Origin: Cyanidioschyzon merolae
Lineage: Eukaryota
NCBI GenBank assembly: GCA_000091205.1
Contig: AP006490.2
Direction: 5' to 3' (one strand)
Length of the DNA: 64,000 nt
Of the stretch, positions 3,867 through 50,598 are shown in pieces. A model generated the notes under the pieces. The model ran no database searches and was not told where the DNA came from. It saw only the letters and a list, made by a program, of their open reading frames with translations. The stretch's first letter is position 1. Each line of letters begins with the position of its first letter. The position numbers and the translations under genes were made by a program.

Positions 3867-4769
3867 CGACACCGTCAGCCTCGTCCACAACCTGGTTACA
3901 AGTCAATAGCCGCACAAGTCGCAATGTGATCGCCACCACCCCGCTCAATGGAAGCACAGTCAAAAGCAGAATAGCGCTCTGCGAAGACGGCAGGCACTCG
4001 TGCCGAACACTGACATGCGCTGTGCCGTCGTTGCCGCGATCGCCGTGCACTGTGATGGACACGTGTTGCCGGTGCGTCTGCGCCAGTGCACTGCTTTCTT
4101 TTCATGACAACATGGTTATATGGATCATAGATTCCAGTTTGCGGTTTGGATAATGGTAATCAAGAAAGCGTCCGTTATGATACACTTTACTTCCAAGTTC
4201 CATCTCTCATGCTTCCTCTGGGATACACTGGTCATTTCGTACGTTCTATCGTGTGCCAAGTGCCTGTCTTGCTGTACCCGTAATAGCAGATATGAAGCCG
4301 GAGCAGATGCATGACGAAGACAGAGCGGCTTTTGCTATATTACTGAGGGCATCGGAACGAGGAACGCTTGATCTGACACGGAGTCGGCGCTCATAATCAT
4401 TCTAGGAACGAGCAAGTTGTGCTGATAGCCTTACTGCCCGCAGCAGCTCGAGGCGATGGTAGAGGAGTCCACTGCGACCAGGGCGATACCCAGACGCAGC
4501 CAAACCGCCCCTGGTTCCAGAATGAATTGCGTGTCGGACGAGTTGCTGCTCAGGTCTATTCACAGCACTAGGTACTGGGAAGGTCAGGAAGCACTGGTCT
4601 GGCAGACTCGTCCGGCTCGCAGGACACGCCGCCTGGAAGGGACACGATCGACAATTCGGAAACCTGTTCCCTTTTTTAAAGTTTATCGTTGAGAGGGAGA
4701 GAAATTGTTATTTCGTTGCTACCTAGACGCTACTCTCTGTTCTTTGTTCCATATAGTGCGGTCGATACA

Positions 4770-7545
4770 CGCACCTCCATATCTGGGAGGCGTGAGAAAC
4801 GAAGCGCATCTGGCCGTTGAAGGGAAACGTGATACTAAACATGCGCGTGTTATTCTAGCGTAGAAGTTGTATTTGCGTTGAAGTCGTAGCAAAGTATAGT
4901 TTTTCAGTTAAATTGTGTTTCAACCCTCAGCTTAGTGTCTTCAAGTGATTTTCGCGGTTTATAGCAGAAGCGTTCAAGGTGCGTTCTATTTCAAAAAATA
5001 AAAAAATATGGAAAAGGATGTGGAAGATTCTGGAGCACAGGTAGCGCCGGCGGCAAGGAAAAAAAAGATAAAAAATGGCGGAGCAAAGAGGATCAGGAGA
5101 AGACGAAGAAGCTGCACGCGGGCGACAGTACGACGAGATCGTGACGAAAGCCTGTCTCTTTCAACATATCAAGGCTCCCTGCATGCAAAAGTTGCGAGAC
5201 GTCATCAGAAATTGTGTCGATTCATACCCCGGCAGTGTTCGTAACGCTTCTTTAGGACTGATGCATATTCCGAGGGAGAGATATCGCGATGTGACGGACA
5301 TCAGAACAGTTGAGGTTTCGGAAGAGTTTTTCGACAAGACCCTAATTCGTCACCTGATACTTGGCACAGGGGAAACGTCGACGAAAAATGAGCTCGTGCA
5401 TGCCCTCCACGAAAACTTCGCCGAATACGGCTGAAACTGTACTCGGTATCGGGATGACTCGCCTATTTACTGCTACGGAGCGATGAAGTGCCTCACGAAC
5501 CTGTAGAGCCACGTGATCGTGAACCTCAAACGCTTCATGGTACGCTCCGTCTTTGCACTGTACCCGGGACTGTTTCGCAAACGAATATGGGCGATTACCA
5601 ATGGAATCACGAACGATCGACAGGATGAAGATGAGATCGAATTCGTCGACAAGAAGACATCACGCAGAAGAAAGGATGAAGCTTCTGTAATCCGTGCGGC
5701 TATACAAGAGCACCGTGCGGTACTGAGGCTGGCGAATCCAGCAGACAAGATATCAGAGTTGAAAAAAGATACTGAAAGATACGAACGCATCGTCCTGTGG
5801 TATTTCGTATTTCTGGACCAAGAGCTCGAACGCAAGGCAGAGGTGAAGCTGAGTGTAGAGACAAATGAAGCGTGGGAGAGACGGAAGGCTGTCCTAATGG
5901 GGAAGCGCTTCGACGTGGTTCCAATGTGCAATAACAAGTCACATTTTGTGACTATTGACTCCACAGTCCTTCATGGCATCATGAAGGAGATCTGTCCAGA
6001 GTTCGATGCTAGCATGGAGGAGTTCTCCGGTGAAAACCGGGAGACGTACTGGAAGAATATCTTCGATTTCAAACGTCTCAAAGTGAGCAAACAAAAGGTT
6101 TTCACTGGGTTGATCGAAACCGATGGAGTAGCCTCGTGTATACACTATCGGCGGTTGAAGAAAGATCGGCCAGTTCCGCCCTCGGCTGCGCCCGTGACGA
6201 AGGATGAAGAAAACAAAGAGGAGGATCATGTGATGCAGGAGGTGGAGGATTACGATATTGTCGTTGACATGACGAAGCATGAAAAAAAGGAGGCGGCTGG
6301 TCCGGCGACTCAGGAGGTAGAGGATAACGGCTTTATCGTTGGCGCTGCGAAGCATGAAGATGAGAAGGAGGCGGATCTCACGACGCAAGTGGTGGAGAAT
6401 AACGACTTTGTCGTTGGCGCGACGAAGCAGGAAGGTGAGAAGGAGGCGGGTCCTGCGACGCAGCAGGTGCATGAGAAGCGCGTTGTCGTTGGCGCGACGA
6501 AGCATGAAGAAAAGAAGGAGGCGTATCCTGCGACGCAGAAAGTGCAAGATAACGACTTTGTCGTTGGCGCGGACCCCGGTAACACAAATGTCATAACCAT
6601 CGCTGCACCGAAGCGTGCGGAAGATGGTACTGGTGGTAACTTTTGTTAGAGAGACATGCGTCTGTTGAGGTTCTCGAGAGCGAGATACTATTGAGAATCG
6701 GGAATCATGAATGCGAGGAAGAAAATCGAGACGTGGAATGCAGGAATGAAAGATCACCTGGAAGCTTTGAGCGAGGTGACGAGCCGCGGGACGGACTTTG
6801 AAGCTTTTCGGAAATTCATGGAAGTTCGCATTGCTCACTGGGATGCGCTGTGGGAAGAATATACAAAGTCCCGCTGGGCTCGTTTGTGAATGAATTTGTA
6901 TTGTGGTAAGCGGCGGGCGTTCGCGAATTTTTTCAATGAGTTGAGCGCCCTCAAAGAGGATCAAAGTCAAGGGGTCGTAGTAGCGTATGGGGAAGGGCGC
7001 TGGGCGCCCAAGAAAGGGACTATGCCAGCTCCGACGACGAGGGTGTACAAAGAGTGCGCAAGGCGTTTCGTTACAATACCTGTAGACGAGTTCCCAACAT
7101 CGTATACACACCATGAACTGGGATGTACACTTCAGAGAGTGGAGATGGAAAAGTGCCAACGGAGCCCTGAGGAATTTGCAAAGTACGGACCGGTGACGGA
7201 GGAGCAAATGGAAAGGAGAGCGAAAGTGCGAGGATTGCTTGCATTGGTAAGTACAACGAATGACGGCAAGAAACGTATGGAGTTCGTGAACTGTAATTTT
7301 AACGCCGCAATCAGTATAAGCGGATGTGCGGTGCTGGAGGAAAGACCTCGAAAGTCCACAAGAGTGAACTTTGTTGGACAATCGCTCAAAGTAGAATTAT
7401 ATGAGACAAGATTGGAAGCAGTAGTAGGTGGCCGGTCCAATAAGACGGGGAGGCGTCTGCACGTCAGTCGAAGACTTTTCGTCCAGGGCGGGCTTCTCGC
7501 CACTACTGTACACCGCCGGCGACAACGTTTTTCTTTTGAAAGACG
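4770..7545 (+). mobile_element. TnpB/Fanzor-like element, copy A; degenerate, one frame 5075-7573 broken by five in-frame stops
   Basis: This copy aligns along its whole length with the element at 46680-49580 (left leader, coding region, and about 70 nt beyond the stop). The track ORFs 5075..5434, 5513..6649, 6707..6889 and 6890..7573 all lie in the same reading frame. They are separated only by stop codons: TGA at 5432-5434, TAG at 5504-5506, TAG at 6647-6649, TGA at 6692-6694 and TGA at 6887-6889. There are no frameshifts. RuvC-I is present ([11 protein letters not shown]). A TSxxC-like segment is present ([13 protein letters not shown]). The RuvC-III consensus is degraded, reading [11 protein letters not shown] where copy B has [11 protein letters not shown]. 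Confidence 0.7.
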
Positions 7546-7573
7546 TTTGCTGTTGCCGGTGACGGCTGCGTAA
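5075..7573 (+). pseudogene. TnpB/Fanzor-like RuvC nuclease pseudogene (copy A)
   Basis: Five premature stops in a single frame. Three lie where copy B has CAG, CGA and CGT. The RuvC-III Asp is replaced (RD to CN). Confidence 0.65.
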
Positions 7574-10003: not shown

Positions 10004-12101
10004 GGTATCGCCCAGCTGCCACGAACGATGGAGGCTAGCGCGTCCTCGTTTTGGGTAGCGCGCGTGCGCTGCGCGGCCGCGTCGACATGCGACACGCTCC
10101 TGCCACGAGTTGATCAAAAGCCTCGCTCTAGGTACCTCAAAAAGCTTTTGCGGACCGCAAGACGTGCAGCGACGCAGCGCCTGTAATCCAAGATCGATAG
10201 GCTGGAAGTCTTCAAGGAGAAGCTGAAGCCGGCAGCATGCGGCCGGTCAAAGAAAGGCCCGGAGGCGTCTCTAAGTGCGTATTCATGTACATTCAATAAC
10301 GTACCATAAACGTCAAAGGAAGGGAAGACCTTTCCATATTGTCGAAAGTTTACCGCCTAGGCGGAAGGTCCGCGAGCCGGACGAGTGTGCTGCGCTAGTG
10401 CTTTATCCTTCCTCCAGTGGCAGGTGCTGTGGCGAGACCTGCACAGCTCGTCTGCAACGCATTTCATTCTGGGACTAGACACAGTAAAGCCGCATATGGG
10501 CGTCGCCCTGGTCGCAGTGGACTCTTAGCATATCGCTTCGCGCTGTAGCAGGCAGTACGTCTGCATGTACAGCTTGCAGGCTCCCAGAATGATTACGTAC
10601 CCCGACCCCGTGTCGCATGAACCAAGCATCGAACCGACGCCCGCAGTGGTACGGAAAAGCCGTTCTGTCTCCGTGCAGCACCTGATTCAGCGGTACAAGC
10701 GCCAAGGCGGGTGTTCACGGCAGGCAGTCGGCGCACGATAGAACGTACGAAACGACCAGTATACTCGGGAGGAAGTATGGGTAATGGAACTTGATGGTAG
10801 GTGCTTCATCGTGGACGCTTTCCCGAGAGCCATGATACATTCCGAATTCTGGGATCCGTGGTCAATGTAAACGTTTTGCCATCTGAAGCAAATGGTGTTG
10901 ATTGTTCTTCCTGAGCCTACCATACCGCGCGGTACCAGGGCGCTGCACTGTAGATGCCTGAGTTTGGCTGGTGCCTCGCGAGTGGACGCGTGTAAGGTCG
11001 CTCGCTTCGCTGGTTGCCGCTCGGCATGGACTGCTACAGACGTTGCGGCAAATGGATCGATCCGGTGAAGAGCAGCGATGATCGTTGGGGATTTTGAAGA
11101 CACATCTATGATTAGAATCGTAAGGAGATAAAGCATCTGAAAAATGGCTGGGAGTATGCTCCATTCATCGATCGTGTGTGGTGGCAGGTATTTTGTGCAG
11201 CGAGGTGAGCGCGCGTCATCAGCCTAGAACTTGCACCGGGGAGCGTTCAAGTCCGATGCATTCTGAACAGAGCCGGGGGCTTGTCACCTCCGTCGGTCGA
11301 GTTATTGATGAGCACGATACGCGTAAATGCGCTGCGAATCGCCTTCGGATCCTTGCTTGACCTTCGCAGCTGCCACCAATATCCGCTCTAAGGCAAGTCC
11401 GACGCTGGCATTCCAGAAAAGCAATGCGAGCTTATTGGGCAGCGATCCTGGCCCCGCGTATCTCCTCGCGCTATGCCTGTTAGCAATCCTAGACTGGCAT
11501 TCCAGCAAAGTTTCATACATTCACTGAGTACGAGTTGGGGGCCTCGCGCATCGGTGCCTTCCCGGCATCGTAACCACTGCCACGAGAACGACAGCTGCCT
11601 TGCGCCGATGCCCGCGACGAACGTCGAAGCTGTTGCGTGTCTGTCGGAAGCTTATATTGATGTATCCAGCGCTGTGGCAAGTGTCTGGGCTAGGCTCGAA
11701 GTTCGTGGGGTCACAGAAGCGGGTGCAAATGCCAGGAGCCGTCACTGCCGTTTCTCAGCGGAGCGACTCGAACCTGCTTCCGCAAATAGCGCCCATTGCC
11801 TAGCACGGCACATCGCTACGCATGCAATCGACTGGTGAAGATGGGCCTCTCGACAGGCTATGTGCTCGCTGACGATGATTTCAGAGGCCTCGAAAAATTA
11901 GCGTTGAAGGACGACAGGGAAGCATACTTGCCTAGGGCAAGCAGCATACTGTGGATAGGGACGGAGCAACTGAATCCGTTTCTCTGGTGCATCCCGGAGA
12001 CAAGCAGGTAGGCAACCAGCCAGGCGTTTAGGTAGGTATTTAAGCAGACATGCAGAGACACATACACTCTGATGCACTCGTATCCGATTCAAATGGTACG
12101 A

Positions 12102-29254: not shown

Positions 29255-29740
29255 GCGTCCACGATCGTAGTCGTCTTTTAACTTTATTCTATTCCACGTT
29301 CAAGTGAGTGTAAACAGATGCTTTTCGCAGTTTATAGCGGATACATACAAAGTGCGTTCAAGTTCATAAACATATCCTCATCTTGCGGACCATCGGGCGA
29401 AGAATAGCAATTGACGAAGAAGAAGACGGGAGATACACGAGAAAAGGTATTCGCCTAACGGGACATGGCTGAGATTGTAGTGGCACAATGGGCACGAGTT
29501 CTGGCAATCCTTGCAATGATCAGTTGCGCCAAAGGCGAAAAACGCATGGAGTTCGTGAAGTGAGACTTCAACGCCGCCATCAATAGCAGACGATGTGCGA
29601 TACTGAAGACGAGACCAGAGGAGCTGACGCAATCATACCTCATGGGGCAGTCTCTCAAGCTCGAAGTCTAAAAGGAGAATCTGGAACCTATAGCGAGGGG
29701 CCGGTCAAACAAGGCTGGCAGACGTGTGCGCGTGGGTATT
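29255..29740 (+). mobile_element. Internally deleted (MITE-like) derivative of the TnpB/Fanzor-like element, copy C
   Basis: About 200 bp homologous to the 5' leader and N-terminal coding start of copies A and B (ttcaagtga...cgcagtttatagc.ga...gcgttcaag). This joins directly to about 270 bp of the 3' end: KRMEFVK*DFNAAINSRRCAILKTRPEELTQSYLMGQSLKLEV*KENLEPIARGRSNKAGRRVRV, compared with [66 protein letters not shown] in copy B. Confidence 0.7.
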
Positions 29741-42693: not shown

Positions 42694-43305
42694 CTATGTT
42701 CACCACTTAAGTTGGCTGCAGGCGTGCAACCAGGGGATTTTGCCTGCTTTTCACGGTTTGCTCGGGAGCAGATAACAGCGCGAATGCCGAAGCGAACAAC
42801 GTTACGTCAGCGCAGCAAACCCGTTTCGCCACAATATCGTGTACATGAATATCCACCCGCAGACGTGTCTCAGCCTTTTCTTACAGGGTTCTGGTATCGG
42901 TTTCAGTTTCTCCATATACACTCCGACGCTGTGAGGCTGCCCAACAAAGTTAGCTTGCCGCAGCGCTGCGTGCCTCGCATTCAGCACAAGCATCTCCTGA
43001 TATTGATACCAGCGTTGAGGTCTCGGTTCATGGACTCCATGCGTTTGTTGCCGCTGGTTGATCTCACCAATGATAGGAGACCAGAACTCGTGTACGCTGT
43101 GCCATTGGGTGCTCTGTCAGCTCTTCGTGCTGATTTGTCGACGAAATGCTCCGCTGGCCTCGCTCCAACTCAACGTCCTAGGGTGTATATTCCAGCTCAT
43201 CCCTTCGATTTTTCGAAAATGAACGCATTTGCTTATAGCCTGAGATGAGAACCTTCCCGCATCGAGCAGCACATGCGGAATAAAGACCAAATGTGCCCCG
43301 GTTGG

Positions 43306-46679: not shown

Positions 46680-49580
46680 TGCGCGTGCACGCGCACCTGG
46701 CAGATCCGGCGGGCACGAGACACGACGCTCTGGTCGCTCCTGAGGGGAACAGTGATCCTGATCATTGGCGTGCTATTCTACTGTAAAAGTTGTATTCGCG
46801 TTGAGGTCGTAGCAAAGTATAGGTTTTCTGTTCCATCCTATTCCGACCCTCAATTGAGTATATTCAAGTGTTTTTTCGAAGTAAATAACAGAAGCGTTCA
46901 AAGAGCGTTCGTTTTCATAAAAAATTAAAAGGAAAGGCATGGAAATGGAAGTGGAGGATCCCGGAGGGCCGATATCGCCGGCTCTCGGAAAAGAAGGATA
47001 AACATGGCGGAGCAAAGAGGAACAGGAAGTGATGAAGAATCAAAAGGGGGCGAGGTTCTACGTCGAAGGCGGCAAGAAAGGCAACTGTACGGCGATATTG
47101 TAGTGAAAGCCTGTGTTCTTAAATATATCAAGGATCCGTAGAAGGAAAAGTTGCCGGACGCCATCAAAAACCGTCTCGAGTCGTACTCCATGAGTATGAT
47201 AAAGGCTTCTTCAGGACCGACGCATTTGGTGAGGGAGATGTATCGCTACGTGACGAACATGGAAACGGTCGAGATTCCGGACGAGTTTTTCGACAACACA
47301 TTTTTTCGTCACTTGATGCTTGGCACAGGGGAAGAGCGGAAGGATATAAGAGCTAGTGCATGCCCCTCACGAACAACATCCCTTTTGCAGGTTCGAGGGT
47401 AATCGAAACAAGGGGGACTGGGGTATTTACGACTATGGGGCGATGAAGTACATCACGAACCTGAAGAACCATTTGAAAACGAACCTCGAACGTTTCATGA
47501 TACGCGCCGTGTTTGCACTCTACCGGGGCCTGTCTCGCAAAGGAATATGGGCGATTATCAATGGCATCACGAACGATCGAAACTATGGAAATGAGGTCGA
47601 ATTCGTTGACAAGAAGGAGTCAAACCAGAGCACGAATGAGAATTCCGTCATCCGTGCGGTTATCGAAGAGCATCGTGCGGTACTGGGGCTGGCGAATCCA
47701 ACAGACAAGATATCAGAGTTGAAAAAAGATAGGGAAAGATACGATCGCCTCGTTCTGCGCTATTTTGTGTTTCTGGACCGAGAGCTCGAACGCAAAGCGG
47801 AGATGAAGCTGAGTGAAGAGACAAATGAAGAGTGGGAGAGACGGAAGGCTTTCCTAATGGGTAAGCGCTTCGACGTGGTTCCAATGTGCAAGATCAAGTC
47901 ACATTTTATGACTATCGACTCCGGCGTCCTTTACGGCATCATGAGGGAGATCTGTCCGGAGTTCGATGTAAGGAAGACAGAGTTCCCCGGTGAAAACCGT
48001 GAGACGTACTGGAAGAATATCTTCGATTTCAAACGTCGCAAAGTCAGCAAACAAAAGGTATTCACTGGGTTGATCGAAACCGAAAGAGTAGCCTTGTGTA
48101 TACACTATCGGAGGTTGAAGAAAGATCGGCCAGTCCCTCCCTCGGCTGCGTCCGTCACGAAAAATGAAGAAAAGGAGGAGGCTGGTCCTGCGAAGCAGGA
48201 GGTAGAGGATAACGACCTTGTCGTTCACGCGGCGAAGAATGAAGAAAAGAAGGAGGCGGGTCCTGCGACGCAGGAAGTGGAGGGTAACGACCTTGTCGTT
48301 GACGTGACGAAGGATGAAGAAAAGAAGGATGCGGATCCTGCGACGCAGGAGGTAGAGAATAACAGCTTCATCGTTAACGCGACGAAGCATGAAGAAAAGA
48401 AGGAGGCGGGTCCTGCGATGCAGGAGGTGCATGAGAAGGACCTTCTCGTTGGCGCGGCGAAGGATGAAGATGAGAAGGATGCGGATCCTGCGACGCAGGA
48501 GGTAGAGAATAACGACTTTATGGTTGACGTGACGAAGCATGAAGAAAATGAGGATGCGGGTCCTGCGACCCAGAAAGTGCAAGATAACGACTTTGTCGTT
48601 GGCGCGGACCCTGGGAATACGAATATCATCACCATTGCAGCACCGAAGCGTGCGGAAGATCGTACTGACGGCAACTTGCGTCAGAAAGACATGCGTCTTT
48701 TGAGGTTCTCGAGAGCGAGATACTATCGAGAATCGGGAATCATGAATGCGAGGAAGAAAATCGAGACTTGGAATTCAGGAATGAAAGAGCACCTGGAAGC
48801 TGTGAGCGAGGTAACGAGCCGAGGAGCGGACTTTGAAGCTTTTCGGAAATTCATGGAAGTTCGTGTTGCGCATTGGGATGCTCTGTGGGAGGAGTATACC
48901 AAGCCCCGGTGGGCTCGACTGCGTATGAATCTATACGGTGGGAGGCAGCGCGCATTCCCAAATTTTTTCAATCAGTTGAGTGCCCTGAAGGAGGATGAAA
49001 GTCAGAGGCTCGTAGTAGCGTACGCAGCAGGGCGCTGGAAGACCCAAAAAGGGACTACTCCGGCCCCAACGACAAGAACGTTCAAGGAGTGCGCAAGGCG
49101 TTTCGTTACGATACCTGTAGATGAGTTCCGAACGTCGTATACGCACCATGAACTGGGGTGTACACTCCAGAGGGTGGAGATGGAAAAGTGCCAGCGGAGC
49201 CCTGAGGACACAGCAAAGCACGGACTGCTGACGGAGGAGCAAATGGAAAGGATGGCAAAAGTTCGTGGACTGCTTGCATTAGTGAGTACAACCAGTGATG
49301 GTAAGAAACGTATGGAATTCGTGAACCGTGACTTTAACGCCGCTATCAATATACGGAAATGTGCGGTGCTGGAGAAGAGACCTCCAGAATTGACAGGAGA
49401 GAATTTCGTTGGACAACCTCTCAAAGTCGAACTATATGAGAAAAAGTTGGAGGCAGTTGTAGGCGGCCGGTCGAGAAAGGCTGGGAGGCGTCTGCACGTC
49501 AGGTAAAGAGTTTTGTCTAAGGCGCCGGTCGTCTCAACTGTACACTGGCACCATCGCCGGTGCATTCGACAGATGGTGTC
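46680..49580 (+). mobile_element. TnpB/Fanzor-like element, copy B; most intact copy
   Basis: The left leader is homologous to copy A from about 46680. An N-terminal ORF (ATG about 46994 to TAA 47402) contains one in-frame TAG and then a 1-nt insertion relative to copy A. That insertion shifts into the main 716-aa ORF 47356..49506 (GTG start as listed). A conserved non-coding tail of about 70 nt follows the stop. Confidence 0.75.
47356..49506 (+). CDS. TnpB/Fanzor-like RuvC-fold nuclease (IS605 OrfB superfamily), core ORF of copy B
   Basis: RuvC-I: [18 protein letters not shown]. TSxxC-like: [15 protein letters not shown]. RuvC-III hallmark: [21 protein letters not shown] (RDxNAAxNI). There are six to seven 26-aa tandem repeat units ([22 protein letters not shown]) immediately N-terminal to RuvC-I. 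Confidence 0.75.
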
Positions 49581-49824
49581 CATGTTGTACTGAATTTACC
49601 AGTCTCCGGCGTCGTGCAGCCGCGGCCCCGCTGCAGCACTGGCAGTGTCGCCACCGCCGTCCTTTCGTTCGCTCATCGGGTATCGTCTCCAGTCCGACTT
49701 GCTAGTGGCCCGCCTTCCCTGTAGAGGAAACAGGGACTGGACTGTTCGTGACCTCGCTACCGAGTTCCGGTCGCTGTTTGAGTTCTCTTGCAGTTGCGGT
49801 TTCCGCTAACTACTTGTCTTTCGC

Positions 49825-50598
49825 ATGGCGCGTGGCCCAAAGAAGCATCTGAAGCGCCTGGCAGCGCCAAGGCACTGGATGCTCGCTAAACTTGGCGGCA
49901 TCTGGGCCCCTCGACCTTCAGCTGGCCCACATAAGCTTCGAGAATGTTTACCTCTGATCATCATTCTGCGAAACCGGTTGAAGTACGCGCTCACTGGGCG
50001 AGAGGCTATGCAGATCCTCATGCAGCGGCTGGTTCGTGTGGACGGGAAAGTTCGCACAGACCGCACTTTTCCCGCTGGCTTCATGGATGTTATCCATATC
50101 GAAAAAACCAATGAGACATTTCGTTTACTCTACGACACAAAGGGGCGTTTTGTGCTCCATCGAATCACACCCGAGGAGGGCAAGTACAAACTGTGCCGCA
50201 TCAAGCGTCAACAACTGGGTGCCCGTGGCATCCCGTACATCGTGACACACGACGGGCGCACCATTCGGTATCCAGATCCATTGATCAAAGTGCACGACAC
50301 CGTCGTCCTTGATATCGAGACCGGGAAGATCACGGACTTTGTCAAATTCGACATCGGCGCGCTCTGCATGATCACCGGAGGCCACAATATTGGTCGCGTT
50401 GGTGTCGTACAGCACCGCGAGAGACACCCGGGTGCGACTGAAATTGTGCACTTGAAGGACGCTGCAGGGCGAGAGTTTGCGACACAGATCAGTAACGTGT
50501 TCGTTATTGGTCGAGAAAAGTCGCTCGTCTCGCTACCGCGTGGCAAGGGAGTGAAGCTCTCCGTCGTTGAGGAGCGCGAGCGGCGAGGCCTGCTCTAG
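49825..50598 (+). CDS. RPS4: 40S ribosomal protein S4 (eS4)
   Basis: [61 protein letters not shown]... is collinear with eS4 throughout. The stop is TAG. Confidence 0.95.

What the first reader, a model, noticed from the sequence alone, without database searches (positions are those of the whole stretch)
46680..49580. Copy B: an apparently intact 716-aa nuclease ORF, but a TAG and a 1-nt frameshift in the N-terminal extension
The main ORF (47356-49506) is uninterrupted and keeps RuvC-I Asp and RuvC-III Asp. The region upstream is homologous to the copy A N-terminus (MAEQRG...KAC...FFD...HL.LGTGE). It has an in-frame TAG (where A has TGC) and a 1-nt insertion just before the ELVHA segment where the main frame takes over. 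So either the functional protein starts internally (the track start is GTG at 47356, with a TAA three codons upstream), or this copy also needs recoding. Copy B has AAG in the candidate RuvC-II segment (VVAYAAGRW) where copy A has GEG (VVAYGEGRW). If that Glu is the RuvC-II catalytic residue, each copy lacks a different catalytic residue. That assignment is uncertain.
Basis: partly seen in the sequence, partly recalled or inferred. Interest (0 to 1): 0.55.

Follow-up and report, generated by a model that had tools for sequence, protein, structure and literature searches.

The report
Decaying Fanzor1 transposon copy in red alga
This is a partly broken copy of an already described mobile element (Fanzor1 element CMe-1A) of the red alga Cyanidioschyzon merolae: its nuclease reading frame is still open, but the beginning of the gene is destroyed, so it is an ordinary young pseudogene, not a case of recoding.

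Summary
ORF 47356-49506 (716 codons) is open. Upstream lies a homologous N-terminal segment in another frame, with TAG at 47139-47141 and a 1-nt insertion near 47345. Independent metagenome assemblies of the same locus carry the insertion (three assemblies) and the TAG (two of three).

The window is Cyanidioschyzon merolae 10D. The ORF is a Fanzor1 (eukaryotic TnpB-like RNA-guided nuclease): a family model matches solved SpuFz1, PpFz1 and GtFz1 structures. Bao & Jurka (2013) described this element family as CMe-1A.

The N-terminal segment belongs to the ancestral protein. It is conserved to 37% identity, confidently folded in the model, and in frame in the consensus of 39 copies.

The RuvC-II idea is wrong. 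The 'AYG' position is Gly in 99% of relatives. The real glutamate is in VDEFRTS (B E590 = SpuFz1 E541), intact in both copies. B keeps D418/E590/D659.

Copy B is decaying. It has private changes at near-invariant residues. Other alleles of this locus carry nonsense codons, and pN/pS is about 0.6. None of the 39 copies is fully intact.

Best reading: a recently dead pseudogene. Internal start or recoding is unlikely. Low interest.

The parts
46681..49581 (+). Copy B of the Fanzor1-bearing element (family CMe-1A). The ends are approximate, +/- 10 nt.
   Evidence: Homology of 37 other full-length copies and copy A starts at 46689-46691 and runs to 49545-49547. A further ~35 nt of a family-typical 3' tail follows. 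The left-end palindrome straddles 46689. No terminal inverted repeats were found.
46681..46694 (+). Left-end palindrome GCGCGTGCACGCGC
   Evidence: Every copy has a short hairpin at this place. The stem sequences differ but remain complementary: GCGCTC..GAGCGC, GTGCG..CGCAC.
46939..47001 (+). Ancestral start codon and leader (MEMEVEDPGGPISPALGKEG), cut by TAA at 46999-47001
   Evidence: The consensus of 39 copies gives one ORF of about 787 aa starting at this ATG (MKKQVDDPGGPVSPAARKKQK...).
47004..47346 (+). Remnant of the N-terminal coding region (frame of ATG 47004). It holds the nonsense codon TAG at 47139-47141 (ancestral TAC, Tyr) and a 1-nt insertion near 47345.
   Evidence: DNA alignment with copy A, L004 and the orthologous contigs L005-L007. 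The region is conserved in P0001, P0036, P0040, P0042, P0043 and in P0044 at 37% identity. Many full-length relatives match profile positions 2-10 onward. pLDDT is above 90 in the AF2 model.
47356..49506 (+). Open 716-codon frame: the rest of REC, then WED, RuvC and TNB of the Fanzor1. The first in-frame ATG is at 47443.
   Evidence: Foldseek hits of the family model to SpuFz1, PpFz1 and GtFz1 have E = 5e-16 to 5e-13. The family profile hits the same PDB proteins by sequence.
48157..48606 (+). Six in-frame 75-bp (25-aa) tandem repeats ([22 protein letters not shown]). They form a disordered linker just before RuvC-I.
   Evidence: TRF. Copy A has five. Copy number varies between copies. pLDDT is below 50 in the equivalent P0001 residues 383-469.
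48607..48609 (+). RuvC-I Asp (D418, GADPGN), intact
   Evidence: Invariant (100%) in the 93 distant relatives; E and G in two broken close copies. Aligns with SpuFz1 D383. Codon checked.
49024..49026 (+). Canonical RuvC-II position (A557). The family residue is Gly, not Glu.
   Evidence: Gly in 99% of distant relatives. Gly in orthologous alleles. Aligns with SpuFz1 'VMG'. Fanzors carry Gly or Pro here (PMC10530073).
49123..49125 (+). Relocated catalytic Glu (E590, VDEFRTS), intact
   Evidence: 99% conserved. Aligns with SpuFz1 E541 in LLDEYKTS. E541 is catalytic.
49330..49332 (+). RuvC-III Asp (D659, [10 protein letters not shown]), intact
   Evidence: Invariant. Aligns with SpuFz1 D606. Codon checked.
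49507..49581 (+). Non-coding 3' tail with small hairpins. This is the expected place of the 3' part of an omega-RNA scaffold; that role is inferred, not shown.
   Evidence: The tail is conserved across about 50 copies up to ...CTGTACACYG, followed by a hairpin-forming segment. RNAalifold found only weak structure and no compensatory pairs. No Rfam match.
4767..7549 (+). Copy A: an older, dead copy of the same family, preceded by a ~650-bp TE-N2_CMe-like module at 4100-4766.
   Evidence: Five in-frame stops: TGA 5432, TAG 5504, TAG 6647, TGA 6692, TGA 6887. The RuvC-III motif reads NCNFNAA. The 5' module is repeated elsewhere.

Best explanation
Copy B is a recently inactivated copy of the Fanzor1-carrying transposable element CMe-1A in the nuclear genome of Cyanidioschyzon merolae.

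The ancestral element encoded one protein of about 790 aa. From N- to C-terminus it had: a basic, NLS-like N-terminus; the first WED strand; the REC helices; the rest of WED; a repeat linker; and RuvC-TNB. By homology with SpuFz1, GtFz1 and PpFz1, this protein is an omega-RNA-guided DNA endonuclease with the rearranged RuvC triad D / E(DEFRTS) / D.

In copy B the first ~145 codons have been knocked out by point lesions: TAA in the leader, TAG at 47139 and +1 nt near 47345. The remaining 716 codons are still open because the copy descends from a lineage that was under protein-level selection until shortly before, or at, insertion.

Since then the copy has drifted. It has replacements at near-invariant residues. 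Nonsense alleles segregate in related strains, and its divergence is at least as fast as that of intergenic DNA. No functional nuclease is expected from this copy.

Shown here: homology, fold, positions of the triad, reality of the lesions, relaxed constraint. Inferred: RNA-guided activity of the ancestral protein, loss of function of the truncated product, and the presence of an omega-RNA at the 3' end.
For: Organism. The neighbouring RPS4 is 100% identical to XP_005536157.1 of C. merolae 10D.

Family.
- Hits carry Pfam DUF8286, and some relatives carry OrfB_Zn_ribbon PF07282.
- The AF2 model of the closest near-full relative, P0001, has pLDDT 84 and pTM 0.82.
- Foldseek top hits are SpuFz1, PpFz1 and GtFz1, E = 5e-16 to 5e-13, TM(target) 0.5-0.73.
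- The family profile hits the same proteins by sequence: 5.6e-22, 4e-14 and 3e-9.
- The element family is described in PMC3627910.

The N-terminus is part of the protein.
- It is conserved down to 37% identity.
- Of 2519 family hits, many of the top-listed full-length ones match from profile positions 2-10.
- pLDDT is above 90 for residues 10-180 of the model.
- The consensus of 39 copies is one continuous ORF through it.

The lesions are real and are not shared by the family.
- They are present in independent assemblies of the same locus.
- They are absent from copy A, from L004 and from the 39-copy consensus ORF, and the TAG is polymorphic.

Decay.
- Private changes D243E, G244R, G557A and R681G fall at residues conserved in 93-99% of relatives. 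The first three are the ancestral D, G, G in other alleles.
- Among orthologous alleles there are 44 nonsynonymous and 20 synonymous variants (pN/pS about 0.6), plus K232* and W561*.
- The element ORF differs by 1.3-2.4% between strains, against 0.8-1.3% for intergenic DNA and 0-0.8% for host genes.
- None of 39 full-length copies has a complete ORF.

Why the ORF is still open. B against the consensus gives dN/dS 0.22 in the main ORF. Most of its divergence therefore arose under selection, before the copy died.

Annotation. The ORF product is absent from the protein collection with any of three starts, although the neighbouring gene is present.
Against: - A 716-codon open frame with all three catalytic residues intact is the third-longest ORF among 39 copies. 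A residual or altered function cannot be excluded from sequence alone.
- pN/pS 0.6 is not significantly different from 1, but it is also not proof of neutrality (roughly p = 0.06 against the 3.6:1 site ratio, before allowing for transition bias).
- Metagenome contigs of a repeated element may be chimeric. That would inflate apparent polymorphism and could create the nonsense alleles and the TAC in L007.
- No expression data were available.
Confidence: 0.86

Rival explanations
1. The copy makes a functional, N-terminally truncated Fanzor from an internal start (ATG 47443, or the GTG at 47356).
For: The 716-codon frame is open and keeps D418, E590 and D659. dN/dS against the consensus is 0.22.
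Against: - This is a eukaryotic nuclear locus, so GTG initiation is unlikely. The first in-frame ATG is codon 30 and lies behind 11 upstream ATGs.
- The product would lack about 145 residues that are conserved family-wide and confidently folded: strand 28-36 and helices 4-27, 46-78, 92-123 of the model.
- By the known WED-REC-WED-RuvC order of TnpB and Fz1, this region is the first WED strand plus part of REC. GtFz1 residues R85, S123, H126 and Y130 in the corresponding N-terminal region are needed for TAM binding and cleavage (PMC11423790).
- Private changes hit invariant residues, and nonsense alleles occur at this locus.
Confidence: 0.06
2. A full-length protein is made by recoding: readthrough of TAG 47139 plus a programmed +1 frameshift near 47350.
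For: A +1 shift anywhere between 47350 and 47402 would restore the ancestral frame and length. The sequence at the junction, GCU-AGU-G (47353-47359), resembles the Ty3 +1 site GCG-AGU-U; that resemblance is recalled from memory and was not tested.
Against: - Neither lesion is found in the other copies compared (copy A, L004) or in the 39-copy consensus; the copies are broken over different, non-matching stretches.
- The TAG is polymorphic at this locus: L007 has TAC.
- The ancestral sequence is in frame.
- Two independent low-efficiency events would both be needed, in addition to the leader TAA.
- The rest of the copy shows relaxed constraint.
Confidence: 0.02
3. The TAG and the extra base are sequencing or assembly errors, and the gene is intact.
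For: None beyond the general possibility.
Against: The insertion is present in three independent metagenome assemblies of the same locus, and the TAG in two. Even without these two lesions the leader has a TAA, and near-invariant residues are replaced.
Confidence: 0.01
4. The open frame is kept because the host has domesticated this copy for a new function that does not need the N-terminus.
For: The insertion is shared by all sampled strains and sits between two housekeeping genes. The frame is open in the reference strain.
Against: The sampled strains are very close (host genes 99.2-100% identical), so a shared insertion says little. pN/pS is about 0.6, other alleles carry nonsense codons, and divergence is higher than intergenic. 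No gene model exists in the protein collection.
Confidence: 0.03

Closest known systems
CMe-1A, the Fanzor1-bearing transposable element of Cyanidioschyzon merolae (Bao & Jurka 2013, PMC3627910)
   Same: Same host. Single Fanzor1 ORF. About 3 kb. Many diverged copies (about 80% identical to the consensus). No TIRs. Copy A has the 5' ~635-650-bp TE-N2_CMe-like module described in the paper.
   Different: Copy B lacks that 5' module: its homology starts at the left-end hairpin near 46681-46689. It has six 75-bp repeats and is broken at the N-terminus. I could not compare with the Repbase consensus itself because it is not available in these tools.
Fanzor1 nucleases with solved structures: SpuFz1 (8GKH, 9CEU...), PpFz1 (9CF0...), GtFz1 (9CER...)
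   Same: Fold (Foldseek E down to 5e-16, TM 0.5-0.73). Profile-level sequence homology. Same rearranged triad: D in xDPGx, Gly at the canonical RuvC-II site, E in DE(F/Y)(R/K)TS, D in NRDxN.
   Different: Only about 13-16% identity. The CMe family has a repeat-expanded disordered linker before RuvC-I. Its zinc-finger cysteines are poorly conserved (THHELGC...C instead of CPxC...C). No omega-RNA or activity has been shown for the CMe family.
Bacterial/archaeal TnpB (IS200/IS605, IS607), especially the 'TnpB2' group with a relocated RuvC-II glutamate
   Same: RuvC nuclease core and the relocated glutamate (PMC10530073). Single-ORF element without TIRs and with hairpins near both ends.
   Different: Eukaryotic nuclear host. 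Larger REC. No TnpA partner in the element. Copy B's ORF and the close relative P0001 do not reach Pfam OrfB_Zn_ribbon, although some relatives do.

Membership tests
Fanzor1 (eukaryotic TnpB-like RNA-guided nuclease) | Overall fold like solved Fz1 proteins (WED-REC-WED-RuvC-TNB) | tested here: met
   AF2 model of the family member P0001 (79% identical to copy B): pLDDT 84. Foldseek gives SpuFz1, PpFz1 and GtFz1 as the only strong hits, E = 5e-16 to 5e-13.
Fanzor1 (eukaryotic TnpB-like RNA-guided nuclease) | Sequence homology to known Fz1 | tested here: met
   Family profile against PDB sequences: PpFz1 5.6e-22, SpuFz1 4e-14, GtFz1 3e-9. C. merolae is listed with one Fanzor1 family in PMC3627910.
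Fanzor1 (eukaryotic TnpB-like RNA-guided nuclease) | RuvC-I Asp and RuvC-III Asp (or Asn) | tested here: met
   Copy B has D418 and D659, aligned to SpuFz1 D383 and D606. Copy A has Asn at RuvC-III. In Fz1 that change alone need not inactivate: SpuFz1 D606N is active and GtFz1 has a natural Asn.
Fanzor1 (eukaryotic TnpB-like RNA-guided nuclease) | Canonical RuvC-II Glu replaced by Gly/Pro, with a conserved alternative Glu downstream | tested here: met
   Gly in 99% of relatives (Ala in copy B, Glu in copy A, both private). The near-invariant (99% of distant relatives) E of VDEFRTS equals SpuFz1 E541, and is E590 in copy B.
Fanzor1 (eukaryotic TnpB-like RNA-guided nuclease) | Zinc-finger/TNB insertion between RuvC-II and RuvC-III | tested here: inconclusive
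   A segment of the right length and position is present and modelled. The CxxC pairs are not conserved in the CMe subfamily. Pfam PF07282 is not reached by copy B but is by some relatives.
Fanzor1 (eukaryotic TnpB-like RNA-guided nuclease) | Omega-RNA encoded at the 3' end of the element, overlapping the ORF end | tested here: inconclusive
   The 3' tail and ORF end are conserved and contain small hairpins. RNAalifold gave weak structure and no compensatory pairs. No Rfam match.
Fanzor1 (eukaryotic TnpB-like RNA-guided nuclease) | RNA-guided DNA cleavage | not testable with these tools
   Needs biochemistry.
Fanzor1 (eukaryotic TnpB-like RNA-guided nuclease) | Complete coding sequence (functional member, as opposed to a relic) | tested here: not met
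   Copy B has TAA at 46999, TAG at 47139 and +1 nt near 47345. Copy A has five stops.
CMe-1A transposable element (Repbase; Bao & Jurka 2013) | C. merolae host, ~3 kb, multicopy at ~80% identity to consensus, Fanzor1 ORF, no TIRs | tested here: met
   430 confirmed related stretches in Cyanidioschyzon-containing metagenomes; B 87-91% and A 82-88% identical to my consensus.
CMe-1A transposable element (Repbase; Bao & Jurka 2013) | 5' ~635 bp identical in kind to TE-N2_CMe | tested here: not met
   Present 5' of copy A (4100-4766) and as a solo copy at 10303-10882 (-). Absent from copy B, whose upstream flank is the promoter side of a host gene. So copy B is a member lacking this module; the module may be a separate element.

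The most novel reading that the evidence does not exclude
Copy B is still expressed and yields a working nuclease or regulator. This would happen either from the internal ATG at 47443, giving a Fanzor without its first WED strand and part of REC, or by TAG readthrough plus a +1 frameshift at the Ty3-like GCU-AGU-G site at 47353-47359.
Probability: 0.03. Interest if true: 0.5.

Novelty: already known. Interest (0 to 1): 0.1.

Why it matters
It matters little beyond annotation. The locus should be labelled as a Fanzor1 (CMe-1A) pseudogene, not as a gene with a GTG start or a recoding candidate.

Two points are useful for anyone reading such copies:
- In Fanzors the canonical RuvC-II position is Gly, and the catalytic Glu sits in the DE(F/Y)(R/K)TS motif. 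A missing Glu after the 'AYG' strand is therefore normal.
- An Asn at RuvC-III does not by itself mean inactivity in Fz1.

The survey also suggests that Cyanidioschyzon populations hold no fully intact copy among the 39 full-length elements sampled. L004 and L021 come closest, which is relevant if someone wants to resurrect a thermo-acidophile Fanzor from the consensus.

Tried and rejected
- Pfam scan of the copy B ORF and of P0001: no hit at E <= 0.1. The local Pfam copy lacks DUF8286.
- Single-sequence and close-family profile searches of PDB sequences found nothing. Only the broader profile A3 reached the Fanzor structures.
- Exact look-up of the copy B product with three alternative starts: not on record.
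- RNAalifold on the last ~220 nt of 35 copies: 11 weak pairs, no compensatory change. I therefore make no omega-RNA claim. The alignment of the terminal hairpin region is poor because two hairpin versions pair in different registers.
- Rfam on the whole window: no match.
- Search for terminal inverted repeats in copy B: none.
- Stop-codon reassignment as an explanation of copy A's in-frame stops: rejected. The stops are a mix of TGA and TAG, the host genes use the standard code, and other copies have sense codons there.
- I could not measure inter-residue distances in the AF2 model because coordinates are not exposed. The triad assignment therefore rests on the profile alignment to SpuFz1 and on conservation.
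Full report
**What is in the sequence.** The ORF list shows a 716-codon open frame at 47356-49506 (+). It starts at GTG, with TAA three codons upstream. Upstream, in the frame of ATG 47004, the translation reads MAEQRGTGSDEESKGGEVLRRRRQERQLYGDIVVKACVLKYIKDP*KEKLPDAIKNRLESYS...FFDNTFFRHLMLGTGEERKDI. The stop is TAG at 47139-47141. The main frame takes over at ELVHAPHEQ. A second copy lies at 4767-7513: 78-82% nt identity, and 72% aa identity over all 716 residues. It carries the same N-terminal segment in frame. A DNA alignment shows that copy B has one extra base near 47345 (GGATATAAGAG against GGA-AAATGAG). It also shows that the TAG corresponds to TGC in copy A and to TAC in other copies.

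**The lesions are real.** The neighbouring RPS4 gene (49825-50598) is 100% identical to XP_005536157.1 of Cyanidioschyzon merolae 10D. The same locus (element, then RPS4, then VPS35) occurs in many JGI metagenome contigs at 98-99% identity. L005, L006 and L007 reach the N-terminal region. All three have the extra base. L005 and L006 have the TAG, and L007 has TAC. Sequencing error is excluded.

**What the protein is.** Close relatives occur almost only in JGI metagenome contigs (one ENA contig besides) and carry Pfam DUF8286. A full HMMER scan with a family profile found 2519 relatives. Many are 600-700 aa long and match from profile positions 2-10 to the end. A second word-indexed search added named green-algal proteins and relatives with Pfam OrfB_Zn_ribbon, the TnpB C-terminal domain. 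An AlphaFold2 model of P0001, the closest nearly full-length relative (79% identical to copy B), reached pLDDT 84 and pTM 0.82. Its only strong matches in the PDB are the Fanzor1 structures: SpuFz1, PpFz1 and GtFz1, with E = 5e-16 to 5e-13 and TM up to 0.73. The family profile also hits these proteins by sequence, at 5.6e-22, 4e-14 and 3e-9. Bao & Jurka (2013) already list one Fanzor1 family in C. merolae, the element CMe-1A. They describe about 150 copies, each about 80% identical to a ~3-kb consensus, with no TIRs. Its 5' 635 bp is shared with the non-autonomous TE-N2_CMe (PMC3627910). Copies A and B belong to this family.

**The catalytic residues.** The profile alignment to SpuFz1 gives these correspondences:
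- GADPGN aligns to IDPN, so D418 of copy B corresponds to SpuFz1 D383.
- VVAYG aligns to VVMG.
- VDEFRTS aligns to LDEYKTS, so E590 corresponds to E541.
- NRDFNAA aligns to NRDMLST, so D659 corresponds to D606.

D383, E541 and D606 are the metal-binding catalytic residues of SpuFz1 (PMC10432273; PMC11423790). Across 93 distant relatives the two Asp are invariant, the Glu is 99% conserved, and the residue after 'AY' is Gly in 99%. This is the rearranged Fanzor active site described by Jiang et al.: Gly or Pro at the canonical RuvC-II position and an alternative Glu downstream (PMC10530073). Copy A's GEG and copy B's AAG are both private departures from GAG, and other alleles of copy B have Gly (A557G). 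The true Glu is intact in both copies. Copy A's NCNFNAA has Asn at RuvC-III. In Fz1 this need not abolish activity: SpuFz1 D606N is active, and GtFz1 has a natural Asn. Copy A is dead anyway, because it has five in-frame stops of mixed type.

**The N-terminal segment is part of the protein.** Four results agree:
- It is conserved in P0001, P0036, P0040, P0042 and P0043, and in P0044 at 37% identity.
- It is matched by many of the top-listed full-length relatives.
- It is modelled with pLDDT above 90: helix 4-27, strand 28-36, and helices 46-78, 92-105 and 115-123.
- It is continuous with the rest of the ORF in the majority consensus of 39 full-length copies. That consensus gives one ORF of about 787 aa.

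The consensus ORF starts at an ATG equivalent to 46939 (MKKQVDDPGGPVSPAARKKQK..., basic and NLS-like). From that start copy B also meets a TAA at 46999-47001 and a 2-nt indel near 47050. By the known domain order of TnpB and Fz1, the missing part would be the first WED strand and the first REC helices. GtFz1 residues R85, S123, H126 and Y130 in the corresponding N-terminal region are required for TAM recognition and cleavage. That the truncated product would be inactive is an inference.

**Is copy B alive?** Several measures say no.
- Copy B has private replacements at residues conserved in 93-99% of relatives: D243E, G244R, G557A and R681G.
- Among orthologous alleles from metagenomes I counted 44 nonsynonymous and 20 synonymous variant codons (pN/pS about 0.6), plus two nonsense alleles, K232* and W561*.
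- The element ORF differs between strains by 1.3-2.4%. Intergenic DNA differs by 0.8-1.3% and the flanking host genes by 0-0.8%.
- None of 39 full-length copies has a complete ORF. Copy B has the third-longest.
- The product is not in the protein collection with any of three starts, although the neighbouring RPS4 is.

Caveat: contigs of a repeated element can be chimeric, which would inflate the variation.

**Why is the frame still open?** Copy B against the consensus gives dS 0.24, dN 0.05 and dN/dS 0.22 in the main ORF. Codon-position conservation across copies follows position 2 > 1 > 3. Most of the divergence between copies therefore arose in active lineages under protein selection. Copy B died recently and has so far collected only a few lesions, which happen to lie at the 5' end.

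**Internal start or recoding?** In a eukaryotic nucleus the GTG at 47356 is not a credible start. The first in-frame ATG is 47443 (codon 30), behind 11 upstream ATGs counted from the ancestral start. Recoding would need readthrough of the TAG and a +1 shift. Neither lesion is found in copy A, in L004 or in the 39-copy consensus, the copies have their open frames interrupted over different, non-matching stretches, and the TAG is polymorphic at this very locus. The junction happens to read GCU-AGU-G, which from memory resembles the Ty3 +1 site GCG-AGU-U. I regard this as coincidence.

**Anatomy of the element.**
- Homology among copies begins at 46689-46691 and runs to 49545-49547.
- At the left end every copy has a short palindrome or hairpin straddling this point: copy B has GCGCGTGCACGCGC at 46681-46694, others have GCGCTC..GAGCGC or GTGCG..CGCAC.
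- Beyond ...CTGTACACYG at the right end there are about 35 more family-typical bases that form a hairpin in two versions. Copy B therefore ends near 49581.
- There are no TIRs.
- Six in-frame 75-bp repeats (48157-48606) encode a disordered linker just before RuvC-I. Copy A has five.
- Copy A is preceded by a ~650-bp TE-N2_CMe-like module (4100-4766), which also occurs alone at 10303-10882 (-). Copy B lacks it.
- An omega-RNA is expected at the 3' end by analogy. RNAalifold gave no covariation support and Rfam gave no match.

**Verdict.** The object is an ordinary, recently inactivated copy of a transposable element family described in 2013. Interest is low.

Noticed in passing
window 4100-4766 (+) and 10303-10882 (-): A ~650-bp repeat, apparently the non-autonomous TE-N2_CMe of Bao & Jurka. 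It sits directly 5' of copy A and occurs as a solo inverted copy 3.5 kb downstream. In metagenome loci it lies next to many Fanzor copies, in both orientations and also downstream of them. Copy B lacks it.
   Followed up: partly
window 29492-29734 (+) and 42895-43174 (-): Two short relics of the Fanzor C-terminus (RuvC-III region), with 44-69% aa identity to copy B. This window therefore holds at least four insertions of the family.
   Followed up: no
window 46681-46694 and 49548-49581; the same places in L017-L095: Both ends of the element carry short hairpins whose stem sequences differ between subfamilies yet stay complementary. Left end: GCGCGT/ACGCGC, GCGCTC/GAGCGC, GTGCG/CGCAC. Right end: CGTCGTTCGA-CTT-TCGAACGGCG or AACGTTTTTC-TTTC-GAAAGGCGTT. 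With no TIRs, this recalls IS200/IS605-type or Helitron-type ends and might bear on the unknown transposition mechanism of CMe-1A.
   Followed up: partly
window 48157-48606 (copy B) and 6196-6571 (copy A): In-frame 75-bp tandem repeats encode [22 protein letters not shown]. Copy number ranges from one unit to 6 among the family members aligned. The repeats are predicted disordered and lie in the linker immediately before the RuvC-I strand. The distant homologue P0044 has none.
   Followed up: partly
window 47353-47359: The place where the main frame takes over reads GCU-AGU-G. From memory this is similar to the Ty3 programmed +1 frameshift heptamer GCG-AGU-U. Probably coincidence, since other copies are in frame here.
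   Followed up: no
window 46960-47000 and the same place in 37 loci: A poly-A run (AGAAAAAAACAAAAAACAG) early in the consensus ORF varies in length between copies. It shifts the frame in several, including L004/P0001, whose called gene therefore starts at a GTG downstream. It is a hotspot for inactivating slippage.
   Followed up: partly
L004 (6001-8259) and L021: These are the least damaged family members found: 778-819 open codons covering the N-terminus, cut about 30 codons before the usual stop. They would be the best templates for reconstructing an active protein.
   Followed up: no
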